64,000 nucleotides of DNA. Source: Balamuthia mandrillaris. Lineage: Eukaryota. Shown in pieces: positions 3,249-38,100 of this stretch. The stretch is from positions 62,001-126,000 of the forward strand of contig JAVKOQ020000083.1 of the NCBI GenBank assembly GCA_031835245.2, in the 5' to 3' direction. A program made the translations under genes and the position numbers. The notes below the pieces were generated by a model. It was not told the origin of the DNA, made no database searches, and saw nothing but the letters and a program-made list of their open reading frames with translations. Each line of letters opens with the position of its first letter. Positions within the stretch are counted from its first letter, which is position 1.

Positions 3249-4463
3249 GGTTGCTCCAGTTACTGCAATCGTTGGTGCTGTTGCAGTTGTTGACGAAGGT
3301 TCTGTTGTGGCAGGAACAGATTTGGGAGCTGCATTTGTACCCAAGGAGGCTTTTCGTTGACTCTTCAACCGCAGCCTCTTTTTAGCATTGCGTTGGATTG
3401 CAGCACCCGCTTCTAGCTCGGAAAGTTCAAAATCATCTTGGTTTTTTTCCAAACGTTCAACCTCTTCTTTGCATTCTTTTTCCTCTTTAGCGCGAAGTAG
3501 TGTCTCTCGTTTTCTTTTCGGAGCCCTCAGGCTCTTTAATTTGCTTTTTGACCGCTTTTCTGGGGAAGAAGACCGTTTGCCATCACTCGACCTTTTCAAC
3601 ACCCTTCGACCCTCACTATCTTCCTGTGGTGAGGCATCTGTATCTGGAGGTTGCAACAGCGCTTTGTCAAAGAGGGTGCTTCCGCCGTATGGTGACAATA
3701 AACTCGCCTTTCTTTGAAGAAAAAGGTTCATCTCCAATAGTTTTCTCACTCCAAAGTCGAGCAAATTGGCGATGCGATGTTTAACTTCAGCTTTCCCATC
3801 AGGACTCCGGGTGTGGTAAAACATAGCGTTTGTACATGCCATTTTGAAGTGATGCTAGGCACAAGAAAGATCAGTTTATAAATAAGGCAGTCTTGAAACG
3901 CAAGAGAGAATATACCTCAAATAGTGGAATATTTCTATATTCATTCACCAGTAACATTTGCTTGATGGATTTATAATTGATGGGATTGGTAACGTAGTCC
4001 TTGTAGTCCTTCTGCTGACACGTTTGGCTTAGCAGCCTATCCGTGTCCTGTCTGCGTAGAGAGAAAGAGTGAAGAAAGGTGAGCATGCGAGCAAGGCTTC
4101 AATACCACGTGACGTACTTTGCAATCATTTCCATGTATTCCTTTAGCATCGCTCGCACTGATCGCGGCACATGTCAGTTTAGAAAGCAATAACAACATTG
4201 AGGGCAAGAATGATGTTTCTACTTACCCACGGCAGTGCATCTTGCGCAGTACCAGTTATTAGGAAAAGCTTGTCCAGGCCCAGCTCCAACACAAGAGAAG
4301 CAATACTCGGCAGGGCATAAGTCACAGCATATTATCTCTCCTCCGCCTCTGCACTTCCAGCAGGTATCTTTCCACGATTTAATATCCAAGTTCTCCAACT
4401 TTAACAAAGCGTAAAGAAAGAAGCAAACACGTGAAGGAGATAAACAGAGAGGAGAACATTAAT

Positions 4464-4500
<37 letters not shown>

Positions 4501-5289
4501 AGGCGAAGCATGAGAAGGAACAAACTTGAGTTTCATAGGCGGCGTAGGCAGCATGCGTGGCACGAATGAAGAGTTGATAAGCCTTCGGTTGACGTTTACT
4601 GAAGCTTCCTCTGCCTGGGTTCCGCTTTACGAATATCTTTGGCAACATAGGGAGCCTTGGATCATGGAAAGGCATGATATGCAACTCTCGCACCCAACCA
4701 CTGAAAAAATATGAACGTTAAGAAAAGACAAGAGGACAAGTTTAAATAGCGATACACGAGCTTACGTTTTGTCTTCTCCGAAAAAGTGGGTAAGCACTGA
4801 ATTGGGAGACGTAGGAGGAGGAATATCAAGCCGCTCCATGTCCACTTCGCACTCATCCAGCACCTAAACGAATATGCAAGAAGGACGGGTAGCAGTGTGT
4901 CAACATCCAGAAAAGAAAGAGGCATCTGGCAGCAAAACGTCTTTTTGACAAAAAGCAAAACGTACATAAGCGGGCCAATAGGGGTCCGTTCCAAACTTGG
5001 CCCAAACGACTTGACCAGCGACCCATGCTGGCTTGAAGCTGCATTCCTCCGCGCCTGCGGTGCTACCCAAGGAGGAGGATGTACCAGCGCTCATGTCCAC
5101 CACAAACTTACACGATCCGAACTCCGCGGCGGACTTCCTCGCAAACAACTGCTGCTTCAAGCTGGCTAATCAAGGTTGCAAAAGCGTGTAGTGCTACGTT
5201 CCGCTACGTAAATGAACCCGTGCCGCAACGCTCCCCTTTCTTTCTTTTTTTTTCGAGCGAGGCATGGAATTAAGGGGTCGGGTCGTCAT
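582..5289 (-). CDS. Multi-exon chromatin reader: PWWP + PHD finger + bromodomain, long low-complexity tail with coiled coil
   Basis: PWWP GQVVWAKFGTDPYWPA (~4970-5020); PHD CWKCRGGGEIICCDLCPAEYCFSC..WYCARC (4219-4407); bromodomain DYKDYVTNPINYKSIKQML / ACTNAMFYH (3800-4020); 1086-aa terminal ORF 582-3842. Start codon uncertain. Confidence 0.8.
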
Positions 5290-5367
5290 GAGAATATAGA
5301 AAGTGGATCCTGATGAGATCTGTCGTGTCGTCCTTGAAAAAAAAAAAGAAGAAGAAGGGAAGACAAA

Positions 5368-5815
5368 ATGAGCACTGCGGCGGCCGTACAGAGCACATCA
5401 ACTGAGGAGGAAGCACAGTGTGTTCAGCTTATTTTTAAGGCTTCTGCGGTTCCTTTCATATGTGGTCCGTATGTAGTATTGGAGCGGCAAACAATAGTGC
5501 AAATAGTGCAAGACACCGTCGGCCCAGCGCTCAAAAAGCGAGTAACAAGGAAACCACGGGATTTACCTCTCCGATTCTCAGTTGAGCTCAGCAGTGCCCT
5601 CCATCAACTGTTTTTCGGTGAGTTTGAGACCACCCTTTCTTCCTTGCAACAGATCGAGGAGATCTTTGGAGAGAATAGCTGCATCACCTATGAGCGTGGT
5701 TCTTATGCGAAGCTGCAGCCCCCTTTACATATCAAACGTCTGAAGAACAAAACAAAGTTCACCATATTTTATGCAGTGTACAATCGATCACATGTTCTCC
5801 AATGGCCCGAAGCAG
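5368..5815 (+). CDS. Hypothetical ~150-aa protein convergent with the RAG1-like gene (3' end unresolved)
   Basis: ATG in an A-rich context and 150 codons of normal complexity, then a likely splice donor G|GTACAA at 5816 leading into a CT-rich tract. No recognisable motif. Confidence 0.5.
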
Positions 5816-5819
5816 GTAC

Positions 5820-6326
5820 AAAATCCTTTCTTCTATCCTTTCTCCTCTCTCCTCTTATTCCTCTCTCTTCCTCTCTTTTCTTTTCGCTCCTCTTTCTCCT
5901 TGCTCTCTTCTGTCTCTTCTCTCTTCCTTTTCTCTCCTCTCTCTCCTATCTTCTTCTTTTCCTCTCTTCCTCTCTTCTTCTTCTTTCTCTTCTCTCTCCT
6001 TTCTCGTTTCTGCTTCTCTTCTATTCTCTCTTCTCTCCTGTCTTCTTCTTCCTCTCTTTTTCTCTTCCTCTCTTCCTCTCTTCCTCTTCCTTTCTCCTGT
6101 TTTCCTTTCTCCTGTTTTCCTCTCTCTTTTCTTCTCTCTTTTCTCTTGTGTTGGTCTTTGGTACTGATCTTTATTTTTCCTTTTCTTTACATCTCTTCTT
6201 CCTTTTCTTTCTCCTTCTCCACTTCTTCTTCTTTTTCTTCTTCTTCTTCTTTCTCTTCTTCTTCTTCTTCTTCTTTTTCTTTTTCTTCTTCTTTTTCTTC
6301 TTCTTCTTCTTCTTCTTCTTCTTCTT
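5820..6326. repeat. CT-rich low-complexity / (CTT)n tract
   Basis: Almost pure pyrimidine on +; encodes the poly-E tail of the minus-strand ORF. Confidence 0.9.
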
Positions 6327-8561
6327 GAAGCTGAGCTGAGCCAACATACTGCTGCATCTCTGGATGTAAACAAATATTCCGTGATGCCCAGTTGACATTG
6401 GGCTTCTGTGTTCGTTGCCTTTTCCGTTGAGGCTCAGGCAATGTCTTGTCGAAGAGGTACTTTTCTTGGCGGAAGGCAAAGGCTAGTTGTTGATAACATA
6501 CCTTCCTCTCTCCTTTTCTCCCTCCATATCCACTAGTTGGTGCTTTCTTGTTTCTGGAGTGGCGACTCTCGTCTGCATAGTTGGCGAACTTTTCCACCGA
6601 TCCGTACTTGTGCAAATAAAATCCAATGTGGTAAACAAAAACGTGTATGTATGGCGTTACCTCCTCTTCTCCATATCGCTTGCTAAACATGAAACCAAAC
6701 TCACGCGCCATCTTTAGCCATTCCTCCTCTGTTATTATGACTTGTGGCTGGGCAGCAAGGGTATAAAGTTTCGCAAACAGTTCCCATATTTCTTCTGTTT
6801 GTTGTGTCCTTGTCCCATCTCCCACTGACCTTCTTAGTGCTGCCATAAACAAAGCTCGTTGCTCGAGAATACGCAAATAGTCTGAACGGCCAAATCTTGC
6901 TTTCTTTACCCGTTGCTCCAAGGTTTTGACCTTCTTCTTCTTCTTGGTTTCTTTCGGTAACTTCATCTTCAACGTCTCAAAGCATTTCTCGAAGCCTTCA
7001 GCAAGGGGTGAATCGTTAGGTGCTTGCTCCATTAGCAGTTCCAACAGCTTGCGCATGACTCCCATGAAGCAGTGTAGCATGCAGGGGATGATGTGGTCAA
7101 GAAGAATGTTGATCAAAGGTTTGTTTTGCACCCCAAAGTGTTTCTGGGCAAAACGATCTTTTCCACTCTTAGATTCACACTTCTCTGCTTGCTCACCATC
7201 TCTCCACATTTCTGCTTCGTTTCGCAAGGGCCAGCACTCGATGGCAAAGTTCGCGATTGAATGCTTGTCAACGCAGCACCAAGGACACTTCCACTTCGAG
7301 TTTGGATGATAGCAACTGTAGAGTCCAAGCAAATGTACCAACGCTGCCATGTCGCACACAAGCACAGGCTCGAGAGCATACTCGGTACCGTTGGCACAAA
7401 TAGTTCCTCCGTTAGCAAGGTATTCTATCCCTTTCACTGCATTCTGTAGTTCCAGCTGTAGTGCTTCTCTGTCTTCCTCACCGAGGAAAATGAGATACTG
7501 GTGTGCGTTGTTTACAGACTTGGCTTTTGCTAACTCGAGGCCATCAAAAAGGAAGTTGAAGGTGCCGATCTCTTGCTTTTTCCGTTTGCCCTGGGTCATG
7601 GTGGCTCCATCAAAGGCAAACTTCACCAAGTGCTTTTGTCCTGGTTTGTTTTCTGGAGGAGGATTGTGTGCTAACACCCAGCTCATGTATTGCAAAAGGG
7701 GCAATTCGTAGCCATTCCCTCCGAGGGTTACTCTTGGTTCCATGGATTCCATAAGTGCTGCTTTTTGCTTGTTGAGGTGATGAATGGAGGTGGAGTCATC
7801 GAGGTTGAAAACAGACATGGTGTATCTCCAGTTCTTGTCTGTTATACCAACTGTTTCTTTGTAGGCAAGTAACACTGAAAGTGCAGGTTGGTGGCGTGGC
7901 TGTTGAAGCTCTTGAAATTCGCTAATATGCTCTTTCAGATAGTGGATCGTAGCTGGATCGCTTTTTACAAGCTCTCCAAGGGCCATCATGAATGATTGTT
8001 GGGGACAGAGACATCGCAACAAGGCCTTTGCTTGCTCTTTGAGGTACACTTCTTCCCTTTCTTTTTTGTTTTCTTCCAACACACTTTGCCAGTCTCTGTT
8101 GCTATCCATCGTTCCTTCATTTCCTCCAGCTCTTTTTTGCGTTGATACATGACGTTTTCTTGTCTCTTTTCTTCTTCTTTTTCTCGCTCCATTTGCAGGA
8201 AGGCTGTTGTGTGTCTCGAATCTTCGCACCGTTGGCAGTCCTCAGAGCAATTAACGTGGTCATCATGAAGCTCATGGGTTGAGCGGGTGCAAGCAACCTT
8301 GAACAGACGGATACATCCATTGGTATGTCGGCACTGAAAGAATGCTTCTGTTGGTTGTGCTTTGCCCTTTGTTTTGCCCTCCCAACGCAAGCAAGAGGGA
8401 CAACCAGCATCGCAACCATGATAGCGCTGCATTCTTTCATGTTTCCACATGGCTTTTGCAGAGGCATAGAGGACTCGTTGGCCATCTTTTCCGGTGTGAT
8501 GGCAGCGTTGGTGCTCGCACTCCCACTTTTTTTCTTGCCCTGCTTCTCCACTTCGCTCCAT
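6187..8561 (-). CDS. RAG1/Transib-like DDE transposase with N-terminal Cys/His repeats; one apparent 1-nt frameshift near 8111
   Basis: Collinear RAG1-core-like motifs: VKFAFDGA, LGEEDREAL, VCDMAALVHLLGL..KCPWC, GVQNKPLI..IPCMLHCFMG, VTPYIHVFVYH..KYGSVEKFANYADESRHS. ORFs 7986-8561 and 6187-8229 join (..EEMKER/MDSNRDW..) with one extra base. Confidence 0.8.
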
Positions 8562-8625
8562 TTTTTTTCCTTTTTTTTTTCTTTTTTGGTTTTTTTGTTT
8601 TGTAAATATTTTCGGGGAAAAATTT

Positions 8626-8720
8626 GGCTCTAGTTTCTAACGACGTGAGAGGTGCTAGTGAACCACTCGCACTTTTTCCTTTTTTGTTGATCTAGATTCA
8701 CGTCGTTAGAAAGTGGATCC
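8626..8720. repeat. Back-to-back 22-bp CAC-initiated inverted repeat (candidate TIR or promoter motif)
   Basis: 8626-8647 reverse = CACGTCGTTAGAAACTAGAGCC; 8699-8720 = CACGTCGTTAGAAAGTGGATCC (19/22). The inner 14 bp TAGAAAGTGGATCC recurs at 5297-5310. Confidence 0.75.
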
Positions 8721-9140
8721 GTCCAAGTGTCCTGGAGCTTGCGATGTCGACAAAAAAAGAAAAATTGAGGAGTCATCACGGAATCAATTCTGGTACTTTT
8801 GGCGGGAAGCGTTCCGCAAAACAAAGAAAGGCCTTTTTGGCGGGAACGAACGCCGAGCGGATGCTCCTCAAGCGAACCAACAGCCAATCCCACCCAAAAC
8901 GGCTAATTACCGTTAACGTGCGCGCAACAAAAGCGGAAGGAGGGAAGAAAAAAAGAGGGGAGAGCCTGGTTTGGGGGATCATCAGTGTTTGCCGAGGGAA
9001 ACGCTTTGATGTTTTTGTGATCGATTTTTTTTTTCCAACGAACCACAGCAGAGAAGGAGTTTTTTGGTTGATCTGGAGAATTTTTTTTTTAAAAAAAACA
9101 AATCGGAAATAAAGAAAAGAAAAAACGAAAAGAGAAAACG

Positions 9141-10440
9141 ATGAGCACGGGCACGCTGACCTACTTCACCACGAACAAAAACGCGCCGATCACCCCGGTC
9201 TCTGGCCCCAGCAACCAAGGCGGCCGTAAGAGAAAAGCGATCCGCAAAAAATCTTTTGCGGCGGTTCGAAAGAAAGTGGCCGACGAGGCAGAGTTTGACG
9301 ACACGCTAAACTTCAACTACTCCTCCAAGCAGCTCGATCCTCCTTCCTCCAATCACAGCGTTGTGAAAGAAAAACGTGCCTCCAAACGACAGCGAAGGGA
9401 TGAGACTGCCAACGTTAGCAAGCAAGGGGCTGCTACCGCAGCCGCCACGGCCGCCAAAACCTCCAACCCTCCTCCCTCTCCTTCTTCTTCCTCTCGACAG
9501 AATGGAGCACAAGCCAAACCCTCTCAAGCAAAAACTGCAGCCACCGCGGCCGCCATCTCTTCCTCAAAGAAAACCACAACAGCAACAACGGCAAGGACAA
9601 AAACGGAAGAGCAGGAATTTCTGCTGGGGCTAAGGTCCAACACCAAAGACCGGATAGACAAAATCATCGCAAATCTCTCCCTCTCCGATAAGAACAAAAC
9701 CAACGGTTCTCTCTCCCTCCCCCTCTCTGCTCTGCTCTGCTCTGTTCTTCCACCGCTTACCTTTTTATGACAGCAATGCAACTCTGCAAAAAGTTTTCGG
9801 ATCCGCTGTCCCAGCCGGAGCTACAAAAGGAGCTGATAAGAGACAAACGGAAGCAAGAAGCACAAGCGGCCAAGCAAAGAACGCAAGTGATAAGCCAACA
9901 AAAACAACTAGAGACCACGAACCACCTCCTTAAGGAGCGAGAACGTTTGCTGCGGGCAGAGCTCGACAAACAAAAGGAAGAGCTCTCCGGATGGAGAGAG
10001 GTCCGACAAAACCTTCAACAACTACAAAAGGACGCATCCTACAATAACAACAAGAGCAACAAGACAAAGACGAAGACGAAGCAAAAAGGAAAGATGGGGG
10101 CGAGCAAAGAAGAGAAAGAAGAACGACAGGCAGGCAAACAAACAGAAGAAGAGCTGCGGTTACTTATCTCAGAGGAAGACCGTCAGTTCTTGGAGCAGGT
10201 GAAGAGTGCTCCCATGAAGAAGGACATAACGAAGCAACTGGAGGTGTTGTCTCTGCAAGCAGATCAGCTGCAGAGCACAGCCAGAGACATTCGCCGCTTT
10301 GACCATTGGGTGAGCACCTGCCTCAACCGTGTCTCTCTCCGTTATCACCAACACCAATTCGTGGAGAATGCTGCTGATCCGCAAGCCTTGATTAAGGGCA
10401 TTCTTCGTCCTGTCACCTCTTCGTCTTCCTCATCAACATA
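9141..10440 (+). CDS. Two-exon coiled-coil protein, possibly kinetochore Dsn1/Mis13-like
   Basis: ORFs 9141-9770 and 9767-10441 are bridged by a likely short intron (~9705-9773). Basic N-terminus with RKKSF; C-terminal LEVLSLQADQL..DPQALIKGIL is reminiscent of Dsn1. The gene looks real; the identity is weak. Confidence 0.35.
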
Positions 10441-10573: not shown

Positions 10574-11986
10574 TTAACATCGCAAACCACGTATGCAATA
10601 AAAACGAGAGAAGAAAAGAAGAGAGTGACGTACCAACGCCTGCTGCTGTTGTTCGATGGCAAGTAGCTTGGCGTGTTTCCGAGCAAGGTAAGCCTGCCGC
10701 CATTTCGGCACGTGGGCAATGAGACTGATGACAACCTCTATGAAGATGAGCCCGATGATGATCCACTCGAGGCGGTGGCTCTGGAACTTGTCCTTCTCGG
10801 ACTGCATGGTGTCGTAGATGCGGTTGAGCACCTCGAGCTGCTTCTCGAGGACGCGGAGGCGGCCCTGTAGGTCCAGGTAGCGACAAAACTGGCCCCATAT
10901 CATCTCCTGGCGGTCAAAGTCCCAAAAGATGTCGGGATGGAAGCTGAACTCGGCGTTGTTGATGTTGATGGTCATGAGGCCGACGAGGATGTTGCCCATG
11001 GTGCGGCCGACTTGGAGGGGCGGCATGACGGCCTTGCCGTGGGTGGCCAGCTCGTGGGGAAACTGCTGGGAGGAGGACCAGCTCTCCTCCAGCGTGGACT
11101 CGAAGAGGCCCAGCTTGACGCTCTGCCCGAGGGCGTAGGCCACGGGCAGCTTGACCTCCAGGCGGTCGCTCTCGAGGGTGATGGTGTCGCCAGAGGGTCC
11201 ACCCACGCCCGTCTTGTCCCCGTAGGTGAACTCGAACTCCTCCTCGTCGGGCGTTAAGTAGCGGGAGGGTCCCAGGCGGTACTCCGCCACACGCTCCAGG
11301 AAGCGGCTGTAGGCCTCCGAGGTGATGCCCCACGTCACGAAGCTGCCAAAGTTGAAGACGAAGATCTCCTCCCCAGCCCCGTTCTTCAGCTGCAACACGT
11401 TGCGGTGCGTGAAGCCCACCTTGAAGTCCAGGAAGGGCTCCTCCTGCAGGCTGCGCTGCAGGCTCTTCAGCGCGTAGCTCTGCGCCGTGCAGATGGCGAT
11501 GCATTTCTGCGGCATGAACTTGAACTTTTCATCCTGGTTCAGCTCGAAGCCCAGGGACTCCTCGAACTCTTGCTCCGCCTTGTCCCGCGTCTCCATCGGA
11601 GGTACTGGCACGTTGTTGTTGTGGTTGCTGCTCACTTTGGCGCCTTCCACGGAAGAGTGTTGTTGTGAGTAGCGCCTGACCGGTGAAGAGCGGCGGGGAG
11701 GTAAGAGGGGCAGCGTGCGAGATAAAGCGGGTGGTTGGTTGGCAGAGATGAAGAGAGGTTGGTGATGGAGGTTGCGCCGAGCAAAAGAGGGCAGAAGCAG
11801 CAAGCCCGTTCGGTTTGAGGACGAAAAGGATGAAAAAGCGGAGAAGAAAGAGAGTCGAACATTGTGGGATGTCCGTCTTACGGACCCACCACAAGGCCAC
11901 CAGTGCTGCTGGACCTTTGCGAAAAAACTTGGCGACGGCCGCCTCAGCGCCGAGGCCGACTCTGCAGCAGCCGGAACAAAGCTCAT
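10574..11986 (-). CDS. RMND1: RMND1/RMD1/Sif2 (DUF155) family protein with mitochondrial-type presequence
   Basis: CIAICTAQSY, IFVFNFGSFVTWG, YALGQSVKLGLFE, PDIFWD, YLDLQGRLRVL, SHRLEWIIIGLIFIEV. Likely start MSFVPAA at 11986; a small last exon probably lies below 10574. Confidence 0.85.
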   Translation of the reverse strand: MSFVPAAAESASALRRPSPSFFAKVQQHWWPCGGSVRRTSHNVRLSFFSAFSSFSSSNRTGLLLLPSFARRNLHHQPLFISANQPPALSRTLPLLPPRRSSPVRRYSQQHSSVEGAKVSSNHNNNVPVPPMETRDKAEQEFEESLGFELNQDEKFKFMPQKCIAICTAQSYALKSLQRSLQEEPFLDFKVGFTHRNVLQLKNGAGEEIFVFNFGSFVTWGITSEAYSRFLERVAEYRLGPSRYLTPDEEEFEFTYGDKTGVGGPSGDTITLESDRLEVKLPVAYALGQSVKLGLFESTLEESWSSSQQFPHELATHGKAVMPPLQVGRTMGNILVGLMTININNAEFSFHPDIFWDFDRQEMIWGQFCRYLDLQGRLRVLEKQLEVLNRIYDTMQSEKDKFQSHRLEWIIIGLIFIEVVISLIAHVPKWRQAYLARKHAKLLAIEQQQQALVRHSLLFFSRFYCIRGLRC

Positions 11987-28070: not shown

Positions 28071-29059
28071 TCACAGACCCATTTTGCTCGAGGTACCAGC
28101 TGCTGCCACTGCTACAGCTCGAAGATACAGTAGCACAGCCTCCGAACGCCATCCTCCCACCGCCTGAATGGTCGAAATCTGCATACCCACAGACGCCATG
28201 GCAGTAGCTCCTCCAATTCGAAGGCTATGGCCTCCTAACAGCAGTCCTTTCCAGCCCGTCTTGTCCGCCATTAGGCGAACGATGTCCCGAACCTTGTCCG
28301 TGTTCAGTCTCGCTCCGCTAGCATCGCTGAACAGAGGACCCGGGGCATCGCCTCGGACCTCCAAGTAGCGCCGAATTATGGTCACAGGGTCAGTAGGAGA
28401 CCTGACTGACGCTTCCACTGGTATGGCGTCCCTCAAGGACGCCTTCACCGTCTTAGACTCCTTCCCCTGAATCCAAAACATACCTCCCGTGGCGTCCTAC
28501 GAAACGTCCGTCCTGTCCAATTTGCAAGGTCCCCGCCACGGAGCATAGTGCGCAGCCCCACTACCACAAGGGCCGCATGGTGCCGCCACTCCCACTCTGA
28601 AACACCCACTGGACAGGCGACCAGCCACTGCGCCAGAATCTCCACCAGGAATGGCGCCCTACGACGGGCAAAGCCCTTTGCCAGCCTGACCTCTCTCTTG
28701 ATGCCACGGACCAGCAACATAACTGCGTTATTGCTGGTAGGGTTGGGCCAAGAGAGATCCTCGTGAAGCTGGGAGATAGCCGAACGAGCCACGTCCACAC
28801 TTCCCCCCCTGCCTGCCAAGAACACGGCCACCAAAAACCGTGACACCAGATTAGGAGATGCTGGCAACGGTTGAGCCACCTGCATGTCCCAACAGAAATC
28901 AAAGAACATGGCCACCCAGCGCTCATATCTGCGCCAAGTGTCAGGCATCCTGGCCTCCCGGATGAGAGCTCCACCCACGTCCGTCAAGTAGCGATCCACC
29001 TCCGCGCCATTGACGGCCTTCCTCTCAACCCGTCCACATGTGCCATCCAAAAAGACCAA
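28071..29059 (-). pseudogene. Tyrosine recombinase of the PAT-like element (frameshift at ~28500)
   Basis: LRTMLRGGDL (catalytic R), GHSLRIGGAT (HxxR), GGWRSEAVLLYLR (W, Y). Confidence 0.9.
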
Positions 29060-30900
29060 CTGTCATTTCCCCAAGCCTCCACCTGGCCTGAGGGGCCGGG
29101 GGGAAAATCCTCGGCCGTCATTACAAAGTGGTCCACCATCAACTCCAGCAGCTGCAGCCACCAAGGTTGTCCAGTCCACACCGGAACTACAATAGAAGCT
29201 CTTGCCCCATGCTCTAAGACCAGCTGAAGCACCATCGGGAGGAGAGCAAAAGGGCATGCAACGTAATTGACCTCGCCGGACCAGTTCTGCACCAGTGCAT
29301 CCACACCCTCCCCACCACCACCGAAATTCACGCAATTGAACCTGCTCAGCTTCATATTGTCTCTTGAGGCAAACCTGTCTATCATATGGGGTCCCCAGCA
29401 AGCCTCTGCCTCCGAAAATGCTCTGCCGGAGACGGTCCAGTCCCCCACAGCTATCGCCCTGCTGTCGAGATCTGCCAGCCAATTCTCGTCCGATGGCACC
29501 CACACTGCCTCGTGGATGACCACCTTGAAATCGAACGTCAGCAGCCAAAGCTTCTGGGCCTCCAGCCAGAGCTCGGGAACTCTTCCTGCTCCACGCTCGA
29601 TGTACGACCGCGCCACCTGGCTGTCCACCTGAATGCGAACAGTGTGGCCTTCCAAGAGATCACTGCACGCCTTCAACACCTTCCGTGCTGCAATCACCTC
29701 CAACACGTTGATGTGCTTGCCCAGATGCTTGGCCGACCAAGTGCCACCCACCGTCCTGCCCAGGCAACACCCGCCCCAGCCCAAGAGGGATGCATCCGGA
29801 GCCACCCAAGTGATCCTCTCTGGCCTCCACAGGGGCCATCCATTGTACTTGTTGAAGTTGCGAACAATCCACTCTAAACGGTTCACTGCCAGCTCGCTCA
29901 GCAATACTTCCATGTCCCACGCCCATGCAGGGCGGTCAGCAATAACGTCATACCATGGCCTGGCGACCCAACAGGCCAGCCCGAAGCCCCTCTTCACGGA
30001 AATCACCCGACCAGCCAATCTCGCCAACTTCTTGACTGGGACCCTTCCACCTGAGACCCCCTGTTGGCGCAACAGCCGTTTTGCACCCACAAGGATCCGC
30101 TTCCGTTTGTTTGAAGGAACAAAGCATACCCCCAAGATGGTATCTATTCCCATGCCCAAGACAATGCCCCATTGCGTTGGTTTCCACTTGGTTTTTTCTG
30201 AAGGAACAAGGCCCAGCCAGTCAATGTCTCTTCTGACGTCCACTATTGCTGGATCCAACTTCGGAACTGTCTCTTCTGCCAACATAAAGTCGTCCACGTA
30301 GACGCTTGCGACTTTGCCCTCCCAGCACCACTTGGCCACTGGGACTCTCGTTGTCTTGGTGAATGTCCAAGGGGAGAGGGTACAGCTGAATGTTAGCACC
30401 CAGTACTCGTAGTATTTCCCTTCCCAGATGAACCCTTGGTACCGCTGAGACTCTGGAGTGACCCACACATGCTGGTAGCCCGCCTCCAAGTCGATCGTGA
30501 TGAACCACCACCCTCTTTCTATCATACGAATGAATTTGTCCAACGTATCCAACTTGCTCCTTTGTTTTGGCAGGAAGTTGTTGACCTTGATCATATTGAT
30601 CACCATTCAATACTTCTTCAGGCCTTTCTTTGGGGCACAACGCACTGGAGAAACTGCCAATGGAGGAAAGCGAGGCATGTCCACAATCCTGTTTGTTGAC
30701 AGCTGAGCTACCTTGTTCCACAAGAACTGATGTTCCTCCTTGTTCCTCACTGTGTTTTGTGCTCACCTTGGCAGCTGTCCTGGCTGAGGCTGAATGACTG
30801 CCCTGTCCTGGATCCAACTCAGCACCAATGCAGGGGCTCCAAAGGCCACCCAGACATCCAGGCGCTGATGAATACACCCCACCACCGACTCCAAACCAGG
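28984..30900 (-). CDS. RT-RNase H-adenine methyltransferase-like ORF of the PAT-like element (5' part frameshifted)
   Basis: IDLEAGYQH, VYVDDF, PDASLLGWGG, HINVLE, QVDSQVA, NWLADLDSR, then WGPHMIDRFAS..VDALVQNW..VVPVWTGQPWW. Confidence 0.9.
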
Positions 30901-35149: not shown

Positions 35150-38100
35150 CGCCCAGGAACAAAGTCATCAATGCCCTCACTGTTGCAGGCCTCCGTCTCC
35201 ACCTCGAAAAATGCCAGTTTGGTTATACATGAGTGTGACTCCTTGGTCATATCATATCAAGAGATGGCCGCCTACCCGACCTAGAGAAAATCTCTACCTT
35301 CGCCACTCTATCTACTCCCACCACAGGCAAGCAAATACAGAGCATCCTAGGTTTCATCAACTTCCTTTGGGACTACTTTCCTTGCTATGCAGAGATCGTG
35401 GCACCTTTTGAGCCTCTCCAGAACGTCCCTGATATCCGACCTTATTGGAATGACGACTGTCAGCAAGCACTTGATACTTTCAAGCACGGCATCTCCAGTC
35501 CAACCATCCTAAGCACACCAGATTGCGACAAACCCTTTTGTATTGGCACCGATGCTTCTCAGCATGGTGTTGGTGCTGTATTTTACCAAGAAGATGACAA
35601 CGGCAAGCATAGTTACATTTGCTTAGCCAGCAAGGCTCTCAACCCCGCTCAACACAATTATCCTTCCATCAAAAGAGAGCTGCTTGCCATCATCTTCGCC
35701 CTCCGCAGGTTCCATTACTACCTCATCGGCTGACGCTTCTTACTCTACACCAACCACAGACCTCTTGTGCATCTTTTCAACACGAAAGACCTCAATAGCA
35801 TGCTTGCGCACTGGGCTCTTGTGATCCTTCACTACGATTTCGAAGTTTTCCATCGGCCTGGCATTCACCATATCCTGGAAGACTCCCCTTCATGGTTGTA
35901 CACCCCTTCCATCCTCAGCAATACACCACTGAATGTTCCTCAAGTTCCTCAGGATGCCAAAACTCTGGCCCCAAAGCCCAAAATCAATAACATCAAACTT
36001 GATGACAGCCAACACTCGGCTCCCTCATGTACATCAAATGACTTCATCAAGGACCTTCTCAGCAAAACAGTTCCTCCACCTAATGAACATCAACAAATCT
36101 TGGAATGACTCCACTCCATCGGTCACGAAGGCGCAGAAAGCCTTCTTCGCAAAGTTCTTAAGGAAGGTTTCTTCTGGCCCAACATTCGCAATGACTGTCA
36201 CAACACAGCATGCCTTTGCAAGGAATGCCTTCGCTTCAACGTCACGCAACTTGGCTTCCACCCTCTCAAGTTGATACATGCTACTTTTCCCTTCAAGCAT
36301 ATCACCATTGACCTTACCAGCCCCTTGCAAACAGACTTTATGGGCTATCAATACATCTTCATCATCACGGACATCGCCACACATTTTATGATTCTCCGCC
36401 CTCTCAAGGACAAATCCGCAGAATAGTCTCCCATGAATTTGTCAAGATCATCTGCGAACTCGGCTTCCCCAAAATCGTCCAGTCTGACAACAGCTCTGAA
36501 TTCATCAACAAAATCATGTTTGCAGTACATGACCAGGCAGGTTTTGACCACCAGTTCATCTCTTCATACCACTCACGAGCCAACGGAGCTGCAGAAAGCC
36601 ACGTCAAGCTCACCAAATCCATGCTTCTGAAATCTCTTAAAGGTGACCTCGGACACTGGTCTACCTTCCTCCCCACCGCACAATTCGCCTTAAATCAGCG
36701 AATATCCCGCCGCTCAGACTCCAAACCCTTTGAGCTCTTCTTTGGCAGGCCTCTTTCTTACCCAGACAACTACTTTAATAGCATATCCAAGCTAAAAACT
36801 CCACGTGAGATCATTTCTCTCACCAAGGTCATGCTGCAAATCGTCTACCCTTCCATCTACAAAAAGGTTGCCAAATACTCTGCCAATGTAGAAAAACACT
36901 TCAACGCCAACAACAAAATCATTTATTTCTCTCCTGAGGACAAGGTGATGCTGAAAAACTCGTCAGCAAACTCCAAAACCAATCCCAAATTTCTTGGTCC
37001 CTTTGTTGGTAAAATCACCAACACTTATCTCAAGACTCCTCATGTTGGATCCATCCCGGACCCTCAGCTCTCCTTTCTTTTGTATCCCCCATCCTTCCTT
37101 TCTCCCTTTTCCCTTTTCTCTCGGTGTACTTTGAAGCAATGTTGAAGATTCACTCTCATTGTCCTTCCTTTATTCTCTTGAATACACTCCTTGTCTCGTC
37201 ACCGACTCTTTCCTTCCTAAGGTTGGATTCAACCAACATTTTTTTTGACTTACATAAGTGATTCAAATCCCCTCTTGCGCTACGCACATCATGGAAGCCA
37301 CAGCCACTCTTGACACCCTCCGTGAACAGCTTCACAAGGCACAACAGGAGTACCTCCGCATGCTCCAACAATCTTTTCAACTTGAGCTCGACATCCCCAG
37401 CTGTCCCGAGACTGAACGCTTCGCCAAAGAAGAAGAACAGCGCAAGTTAAATGAAGTCGTAGAACACATTAGAAAGGCCATGGAACGGTTACAACAACGT
37501 ATAGACAGCTTTGCTATTTTCCTCGCATCCACCTCGGCCACACTAGGCAATTCTTCCACATGCAACACTTCCGCTGCCGCTGTTTCTCCTCCCTTGCCGT
37601 TCCACAGATCTCTCCCATACAGTTACCTCATTCGAGTTCACCCTCTCCCGTTGACATTTCCATCAACAACACAACGCTTCCAACAGCACACACGTTGCCT
37701 CTGTCCCAGAACAACACAACTACTCCTTCCCCTTCTACTCAGAAGAAAATGCCTCGCCTTCCCCCCAGACTACCTAAGTTCGACGTCAGCAAGCGCCAGG
37801 ACCCTGCTCTTCACACCATGGAACTGAAGTATCACCTCAACGCCTACAACTACCCTGAGGATAGATGGACGCAATGCCCTCATCACCACCCTTGTTGGAG
37901 ACGGACGTCTTTGGGCCATTAGCGCTCTACGAGACCAACCGTGGAACGTTGCCCGAGACCTCTTCCATCGGCACTACCGCCTTCCAGACATCAAGGCTAC
38001 AATGATTGAGGCCGTCATGTTGTTTTGACAGAAGCCTGGCGAAAGCATTTATCAACTTATCAATCAGTATTCTATACTCTGTAATCGTCTTCCTGACACC

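What the first reader, a model, noticed from the sequence alone, without database searches (positions are those of the whole stretch)
5279..8647. ProtoRAG-like architecture: RAG1-like gene tail-to-tail with an unknown partner inside CAC-type ends
Seen: a ~3.4-kb cassette between two host genes with two convergent ORFs (5368+ and 8561-). Each ATG lies about 60 bp inside an inward-facing copy of the same motif (5297-5310; 8626-8647 ending GTG). Known: ProtoRAG/RAGL transposons carry convergent RAG1L and RAG2L between CAC-starting TIRs, whereas Transib has a single gene. The partner shows no kelch repeats, so it is not recognisably RAG2. Inference: an amoebozoan two-gene RAG1-like element with a different accessory protein, possibly undescribed, or a domesticated derivative. 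The left end is degenerate and no TSD is visible.
Basis: partly seen in the sequence, partly recalled or inferred. Interest (0 to 1): 0.85.

Follow-up and report, generated by a model that had tools for sequence, protein, structure and literature searches.

The report
RAG1-like amoeba transposon, new partner gene
An amoeba carries a likely disabled copy of a two-gene jumping element whose cutting enzyme is predicted to fold like RAG1, the antibody-gene recombinase, and whose second gene, which faces it in related environmental elements too, encodes a small protein unlike RAG2 that likely helps or controls the enzyme.

Summary
The two convergent genes are real and belong together. The large one is a Balamuthia mandrillaris RAG1/Transib-type transposase: its family profile hits amphioxus RAG1L (E 2e-8), its model matches RAG1 (Z 25.6), and the DDE and zinc residues are intact. 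The window's copy has a frame break near 8095.

The partner is a purifying-selected, basic, ~120-residue alpha/beta protein, not a kelch propeller, with no structural match found. It lies tail-to-tail with the transposase in 4 of 6 testable distinct metagenome loci (the 2 without it are decayed). Two of these, L002 and L004, look like whole elements with CACT ends.

The transposase-side terminus is 8729 (18/20 identical to L002's end); 8626-8647 is one arm of an internal inverted pair; 5297-5310 repeats the other arm directly. No left terminus or target duplication was found.

Verdict: a new variant of the RAG1/Transib (CMCT) kind, not a ProtoRAG. The partner's role, most likely a DNA-binding helper or regulator, is inferred. 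This scan earlier noted RAG1-like elements with other non-RAG2 partners on other DNA; none resembled this partner by sequence look-up.

The parts
5279..5310 (+). Left box: copy of the transposase-end outer arm, pointing at the partner ATG; not a terminus
   Evidence: 14/14 identical to 8707-8720; 77% over 35 nt to the L002 transposase-side subterminal region
5368..5815 (+). Partner gene, exon 1 (149 codons; conserved domain about residues 30-147, ending at a Trp-Pro)
   Evidence: P0014 exact match; homologues in L001, L002, L004, L005/6; codon-position test; model pLDDT 81
5816..6330 (+). CT-rich low-complexity tract; predicted intron of the partner; on the other strand it holds the transposase's poly-Glu tail and stop (6187)
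   Evidence: GT donor at 5816, first AG at 6329-6330, same join as P0014; tail shared by P0001/P0009/P0011; no RNA evidence
6331..6395 (+). Predicted short second exon of the partner (about 21 codons, then a stop), antisense to the transposase tail
   Evidence: mapping; stop; predicted only
6187..8097 (-). Transposase core: D167 (7611-7609), D253 (7353-7351), E514 (6570-6568), SxxxCxxC (C275 7287, C278 7278), H346 (7074), H489 (6645), H494 (6630); numbering from the ATG at 8109
8093..8097 (-). Frame break in a short AG run between the N-terminal part and the core
   Evidence: P0001, P0010 and P0011 read through here in one frame; P0009's gene model changes frame across the same region
8098..8561 (-). 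Transposase N-terminal part: two Cys/His repeats (likely zinc-binding) and a charged helix
   Evidence: aligned with L001, L002, L004 and P0007; Atlas lead only, zf-C2H2 at 0.85
8626..8648 (-).
   Evidence: 87% complementary to 8698-8720; a like pair lies in L001 and L002
8698..8720 (+). Outer arm of the subterminal inverted pair, overlapping the terminal 20-30 nt
8710..8729 (-). Transposase-side terminus, reading CACTTGGACGGATCCACTTT inward
   Evidence: 18/20 identical to the L002 terminus, next best place in the window 14/20; 13/20 to the L001 counterpart

Best explanation
This is a likely defective copy of a two-gene cut-and-paste DNA transposon of the RAG1/Transib kind, whose transposase is predicted to cut at CAC-starting ends as RAG1 does and whose small basic partner likely binds DNA boxes near the ends to assist or regulate it. 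Shown: the RAG1/Transib sequence and predicted-fold relationship, intact catalytic and zinc residues, a conserved convergent partner under protein-level selection, CACT termini bounding both genes in relatives L002 and L004, and a homologous terminus at 8729. Inferred from RAG1 and Transib chemistry: the enzyme pairs the two ends, nicks and hairpins the flanks and inserts with a short duplication. Inferred by analogy to En/Spm TnpA: the partner recognises the repeated subterminal boxes (the arms at 8626-8648 and 8698-8720, the copy at 5279-5310), which also sit about 60 nt before both start codons, so one protein could help hold the ends and tune both promoters. The window's copy sits between the heads of two divergent host genes and has a frame break and no recognisable left terminus, so it would be immobile. 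Odds: two-gene mobile element 0.85; partner acting mainly through DNA binding about 0.45.
For: Profile of 112 relatives hits BbRAG1L (E 2.2e-8) and zebrafish and mouse RAG1. Model pLDDT 91; Foldseek RAG1 E 3.6e-15; VIA Z 25.6 RAG1, 23.7 BbRAG1L, 23.3 HzTransib, 12.8 P element, 7.9 Hermes. D167 is kept in 63 of 76 spanning rows, D253 in 68 of 84, E514 in 56 of 80, most other rows being gaps. Partner homologues are convergent in L001, L002, L004, L005, L006 (tblastn E 3e-21 to 3e-6, 25-36% identity); stop codons lie 3-38 nt apart in L001, L002 and L004. Codon identity is 0.47-0.77 at position 2 and 0.23-0.35 at position 3 in all 10 pairs; pI 8.0-9.9. L002 has inverted ends 11/12 identical at 20 and 3178 and a spliced 758-aa transposase without stops; L004 has CACTTC ends at 15 and 3729. 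Five near-identical transposase records on five contigs and two partner records on two contigs. TnpA precedent: PMC2613891, passages.
Against: No left terminus (best local score 3.9 against 11.2 at 8729) and no target duplication in the window or in L002/L004, whose flanks are only 3-19 nt. No empty site and no RNA data. Two distinct decayed relatives (L007/L008; L009-L011) show no partner. The linked loci were found through the transposase, so a partner that stands alone was barely tested. Balamuthia is diploid-like and only 33% of its proteins have a single counterpart (bioRxiv 2025.02.25.640156, passages), so seven records need not mean seven insertions; P0014 matches the window exactly and may be this locus. 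The full box AAAGTGGATCC is absent from L002's partner-side end and from L001 and L004, and L004's ends share only 5-7 of the first 13 nt with the window's, so a shared binding site is not evident across the family. Nothing tests DNA binding directly.
Confidence: 0.6

Rival explanations
1. Same element, but the partner is a RAG2-like subunit in function: it docks on the transposase and is needed for efficient cutting, an independent solution to the RAG2 role.
For: Tail-to-tail layout as in ProtoRAG, kept across 25-36% partner identity. The transposase keeps a RAG1-length zinc-domain insert: the profile aligns to BbRAG1L through this region, D-to-E spacing is 261 aa against 253 in RAG1 and 206-214 in insect Transib (PMC1131882). 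Tao et al. call this region RAG2-binding (PMC9435367).
Against: Subgroup I Transibs keep the same region without any RAG2, so it does not imply a partner. The partner shares neither size nor predicted fold with RAG2.
Confidence: 0.2
2. Same element, but the partner is an anti-silencing or chromatin cargo protein that protects the element from host methylation or RNA silencing and plays no part in cutting.
For: A TET/JBP-like oxygenase ORF lies head-to-head beside the partner in L001 (Pfam Tet_JBP E 0.034, below cut-off). TET-carrying CMCT-clade elements in fungi encode extra proteins (PMC12730594, passages). The partner frame stays open where the transposase is broken (window; L005/L006).
Against: No chromatin-reader or nuclease family or fold was recognised; the TET ORF is seen in 1 of 4 partner-bearing elements and may lie outside L001's end (candidate end 8/12 at 3286).
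Confidence: 0.15
3. The window's cassette is a domesticated, fixed host locus, or the partner is an ordinary host gene beside a dead transposase.
For: No left terminus or target duplication; G+C of the two genes (0.47-0.48) is near that of the left flank gene (0.50); host genes are often multi-copy in this genome.
Against: Partner and transposase lie together inside CACT ends in unrelated contigs; the transposase is frame-broken here and the records differ in their apparent lesions; several further transposase families occur in Balamuthia.
Confidence: 0.05

Closest known systems
ProtoRAG / RAGL transposons (BbRAGL, PDB 6b40; AanRAGL of Aureococcus)
   Same: RAG1-type core by profile (E 2.2e-8) and fold (Z 23.7); second gene; convergent layout; short CAC-starting, otherwise unlike ends in relatives.
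   Different: Partner is a ~120-residue alpha/beta domain, not a six-bladed kelch with PHD; about 11-16% structural identity to RAG1 proteins; the N-terminus is two Cys/His repeats with no RING family hit; no Cys-rich C-terminal tail is evident in the sequence; 5-bp duplication not seen.
Transib transposons (HzTransib, PDB 6pqx; Subgroup I Transib of Tao et al. 2022)
   Same: Same fold (Z 23.3), DDE, SxxxCxxC and HxxxxH motifs, CAC ends, 3-4 kb size (L002 3159 nt, L004 3715 nt).
   Different: Transibs are described as single-gene elements; the profile did not hit HzTransib at E<=10; D-to-E spacing is 261, RAG1-like; no AAAAAAATC nonamer at heptamer+23 was evident by eye.
CMCT clade (EnSpm/CACTA, Mirage, Chapaev, Transib, Plavaka, ESTA, Lanisha; PMC12730594)
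   Same: [quoted passage not shown]
   Different: None of 112 family members hit an EnSpm, Plavaka or KDZ Pfam model at E<=0.01; 1 hit RAG1 (E 0.0085) and 1 DUF1280. TnpA is a 67-kDa splice product of the same transcript, not a convergent small gene.

Membership tests
RAGL / ProtoRAG | RAG1-like core with DDE triad and zinc site | tested here: met
RAGL / ProtoRAG | RAG2-like gene with a six-bladed kelch core | tested here: not met
   The conserved partner domain is about 120 residues and four homologues stop 2-6 residues after the final Trp-Pro; the confident model has three helices and seven short strands: too small for a six-bladed propeller. No kelch or RAG2 Pfam hit.
RAGL / ProtoRAG | Two genes between the ends, usually convergent | tested here: met
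   L002 and L004; window layout
RAGL / ProtoRAG | Bipartite RSS-like terminal repeats with asymmetric spacers | tested here: inconclusive
   CACT-starting 9-12 nt repeats, unlike beyond that; no second conserved block shared by both ends was found; the window has one end only
RAGL / Transib | 5-bp target site duplication | tested here: inconclusive
   None in the window; L002 and L004 flanks are 3-19 nt and do not match, as expected if the contigs collapse several copies
Transib | Transposase with the RAG1/Transib fold and motifs | tested here: met
Transib | Single gene between the ends | tested here: not met
   A second conserved gene lies inside the ends of L002 and L004
Transib | Falls inside the Transib or RAG1L clade in a tree | not testable with these tools
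   No named Transib or RAG1L sequences were available as stored proteins; the tree holds family members only
CMCT clade | DDE with C(2)C and H(3-4)H motifs; CA..TG termini | tested here: met
   C275/C278, H489/H494; ends; definition from PMC12730594
EnSpm / Chapaev / Mirage / Plavaka / ESTA | Closer kinship to these transposases than to RAG1/Transib | tested here: inconclusive
   No such Pfam hit among 112 members, but none of these appeared in the solved-structure lists, so the fold comparison cannot rank them
RAGL / Transib | Nick-hairpin cleavage and transposition activity | not testable with these tools
   needs an assay

The most novel reading that the evidence does not exclude
A protist lineage of RAG1-type transposons independently recruited an obligatory second subunit of a new fold, in the same tail-to-tail layout as RAG1-RAG2, that docks on the transposase and licenses cutting: a second, convergent invention of the RAG2 role, with intact elements (L002, L004) available to test it.
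Probability: 0.2. Interest if true: 0.88.

Novelty: new variant of a known kind. Interest (0 to 1): 0.68.

Why it matters
Current models say that the RAG ancestor arose when a single-gene Transib gained RAG2L (PMC9435367; bioRxiv 2023.08.20.553239). Here a RAG1-type transposase with the RAG1-length zinc domain travels with a different, structurally unmatched partner in the same convergent layout, across elements whose transposases are only 36-50% identical. This suggests that gaining a partner happened more than once, and it supplies a natural comparison for the open question of what RAG2 first contributed. L002 (3.2 kb, both ends, open spliced frames) is a ready test substrate. The family is also large and mis-annotated: 953 representative proteins at E<=0.001, and the Balamuthia records are named myosin-VIIb-like or caldesmon.

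Tried and rejected
No whole genome is held for the window, so other copies, their ends and empty sites could not be read; no sequencing runs were obtained, so expression, splicing and the frame break are unchecked by reads.

Single-sequence searches of the transposase found no Pfam family and no solved structure; the 9-row profile also missed RAG1; only the 112-row profile reached it.

Partner: no longer homologue among 231 candidates; one near-length hit among 13 candidates; Atlas best 0.75, not held; no solved-sequence hit below E 0.47; Foldseek PDB and viral libraries gave nothing at E<=0.001; VIA against 48,161 chains gave a best Z of 4.2 and none at 5 or more. This does not show that the fold is new.

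Co-folding of partner with transposase gave no answer (score 0.00, alignments not used, partner fold uncertain); it counts neither way.

The idea that the partner is a split-off or duplicated piece of the transposase was rejected: weak HMM hits to P0125/P0076 were not borne out by profile comparison (probability 0.1%).

A larger element that includes the PWWP gene was considered: no match to the 8729 end on the + strand with up to 4 mismatches.

No relatives in viral contigs (0 of 29 and 0 of 9 candidate stretches), prokaryote genome contigs (0 of 14) or phage records.

The residue aligned with RAG1 R848 is Arg in 55 of 96 spanning rows, but the alignment there is too loose to argue domestication from it.

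The careful tree did not finish; the quick tree was used.
Full report
Observation. The window shows an ORF at 5368(+) and, opposite, two overlapping ORFs, 8561-7986 (191 aa, Cys/His-rich) and 8241-6187. The closest protein record, P0001 (782 aa, 98% identical, Balamuthia mandrillaris), joins the two in one frame, so the window's copy has a frame break near 8095. Its cluster holds five records on five contigs, named myosin-VIIb-like, caldesmon or hypothetical. All differ slightly from the window. P0009's gene model changes frame across the same region, which suggests a real lesion and not a one-off sequencing error; this is inferred from gene models only. The cassette lies between two outward-facing genes (PWWP start at 5094-; ORF at 9141+).

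The large protein. Single-sequence searches found nothing. A profile search returned 953 representative proteins at E<=0.001 and 95 at 1e-30. Of 10 looked up, 4 were named: Balamuthia (2), Planoprotostelium and Heterostelium. A 112-row alignment (111 of the hits plus the window) hit amphioxus RAG1L at E 2.2e-8 and zebrafish and mouse RAG1 at 7e-5 to 0.16, but not HzTransib at E<=10. The model (pLDDT 91, pTM 0.87) matched RAG1 at E 3.6e-15. VIA Z-scores were 25.6 for RAG1 (455 aligned, rmsd 4.1), 23.7 for BbRAG1L, 23.3 for HzTransib, 12.8 for P element and 7.9 for Hermes. RAG1 and Transib are therefore barely separated by fold, and no EnSpm-, Chapaev- or ESTA-type structure appeared for comparison. 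D167, D253, E514, C275/C278, H346 and H489/H494 are present and conserved. The D-to-E spacing, 261 aa, is RAG1-like (253) and longer than in insect Transib (206-214; PMC1131882, passages). The N-terminal Cys/His repeats are shared with L001, L002, L004 and P0007.

The partner. The only database hit is P0014, on two contigs. Its later predicted exons lie antisense inside the transposase and match the window exactly, so those records are linked to the transposase but may include this very locus. A metagenome scan confirmed 11 loci from 38 candidates. Partner homologues lie on the opposite strand just beyond the transposase stop in 5 of the 11 (L001, L002, L004, L005, L006). L005 and L006 are versions of one element (both match P0007), giving 4 distinct elements. 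L003 lies wholly inside the transposase and cannot be tested. L007/L008 and L009-L011 appear to be two decayed, distant loci seen repeatedly, and show no partner. The count is 4 of 6 testable distinct loci. Third codon positions are near random (0.23-0.35) while second positions are kept (0.47-0.77) in all 10 pairs, and the domain is basic. Invariant residues include K57, R61, L66-P67, G111-S112 and W146-P147. The model from five rows is confident over residues 31-150 (mean pLDDT 81): three helices and seven short strands, not a propeller. No library gave a credible match (see Tried and rejected). In a quick tree of 30 rows the five partner-bearing rows fall in one 10-row group (SH-aLRT 90, below the 95 mark) that also holds another Balamuthia family and three rows of unknown context. 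I left out near-duplicates, five internally deleted or multi-stretch rows (P0004, P0047, P0081, P0147, P0153, P0156 class) and rows not spanning the core. Whether the rest of the family has this partner is unknown.

The ends. The copies at 8626-8648 and 8698-8720 form a back-to-back inverted pair, and L001 and L002 carry a like pair at the same place, L004 a 69-nt palindrome. L002 has inverted CACTGCG ends, 11/12 identical, 19 and 3 nt from its contig ends, and a two-intron 758-aa transposase frame without stops. L004 has CACTTC ends 14 and 10 nt from its contig ends, though an internal site scores as well (8/12). L002's transposase-side 20-mer matches the window at 8729 with 18/20, the next best place scoring 14/20. 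So 8729 is the terminus. On the left, no comparable end exists and no flank duplication was found. The box at 5279-5310 is a direct copy of the outer arm (1 of 1000 shuffles), 57 nt before the partner ATG. It may be an internal binding site whose terminus has decayed, or a remnant of a neighbouring copy; I cannot tell which.

Mechanism. Shown: kinship, intact active-site residues, gene linkage, ends in relatives. Inferred from RAG1, BbRAGL and HzTransib (bioRxiv 2023.08.20.553239, passages): end pairing, nick-hairpin cleavage and insertion with a short duplication. Inferred by analogy: the partner binds the subterminal boxes, as En/Spm TnpA does (PMC2613891, passages), and so aids end pairing or regulates both promoters. 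Against this, the full box is not shared by all family members or by both ends of L002; the transposase's own Cys/His repeats could equally be the binder. Rivals are a RAG2-like subunit role, an anti-silencing cargo and a fixed host locus. Copy number is weak evidence, because the genome is diploid-like with many multi-copy genes (bioRxiv 2025.02.25.640156, passages).

Literature. Ten searches (listings and abstract starts) showed no paper describing an amoebozoan RAG1-like element or this partner. Tao et al. (PMC9435367; whole text) report RAG1L fragments in unnamed 'primitive eukaryotes' and a RAG2L-bearing element in Aureococcus. One supplement file held none of six amoebozoan names, but figures and abbreviated names could hide them. 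Kojima (PMC12730594; passages) defines the CMCT clade, with no occurrence of 'amoeb'. Also read as passages: bioRxiv 2021.09.26.461848 and PMC10471605; neither passage set describes this family. Supplements of the bioRxiv papers were not seen. Repbase could not be searched. I recall, without a source, that Dictyostelium DDT elements are two-gene DNA transposons; the paper was not held, so kinship with them is open and could lower the novelty. Earlier notes of this scan describe RAG1-like elements with other non-RAG2 partners in Naegleria and marine animals (unchecked AI notes). Sequence look-ups with this transposase, this partner and this region found no real look-alike.

Verdict. A real, apparently undescribed two-gene variant of the RAG1/Transib (CMCT) transposons, not a member of RAGL because the RAG2 criterion fails. 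The window holds a likely dead copy. Interest 0.68: the pairing is surprising and testable with L002, but the partner's role is unshown and the theme of RAG1-like enzymes with other partners has recurred in this scan.

Noticed in passing
L001:3314-4111 (+): A TET/JBP-like 2OG-Fe(II) oxygenase ORF lies head-to-head with the partner (Pfam Tet_JBP E 0.034, below cut-off). An 18-nt direct repeat and a weak end candidate (3286) lie between them, so cargo versus neighbour is unresolved.
   Followed up: partly
L005 and L006: The transposase is reduced to at least nine near-identical pieces of P0007 by internal deletions while the partner frame (238 codons) is open: a non-autonomous derivative or an assembly artefact.
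   Followed up: partly
L009:3600-7450: A decayed distant relative is interrupted by ORFs that look by eye like Tc1/mariner and another DDE transposase; motifs recalled, not scanned.
   Followed up: no
P0015, P0025 and their clusters; P0004, P0008: At least three further families of this transposase occur in Balamuthia records, with 3-4 members in two of the clusters; relatives also in Planoprotostelium (P0018) and Heterostelium (P0089).
   Followed up: partly
P0016: A family member carries a Ulp1-type peptidase domain after the transposase core (Pfam Peptidase_C48, E 9e-19); two others carry SAP domains.
   Followed up: no
window 28984-30606 (-) and 36516-41148 (+): Retroelement remains: two reverse transcriptase ORFs (RVT_1 E 1e-9 and 4e-17) with neighbouring fragments.
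   Followed up: no
window 10574-11986 (-): Host gene with an RMND1/Sif2-Sif3 (DUF155) domain, E 4e-31.
   Followed up: no
L004:24-92 and 3543-3565: A 69-nt imperfect palindrome near the transposase-side end and a 23-nt near-perfect one on the partner side: subterminal palindromes recur in the family with unlike sequences.
   Followed up: partly
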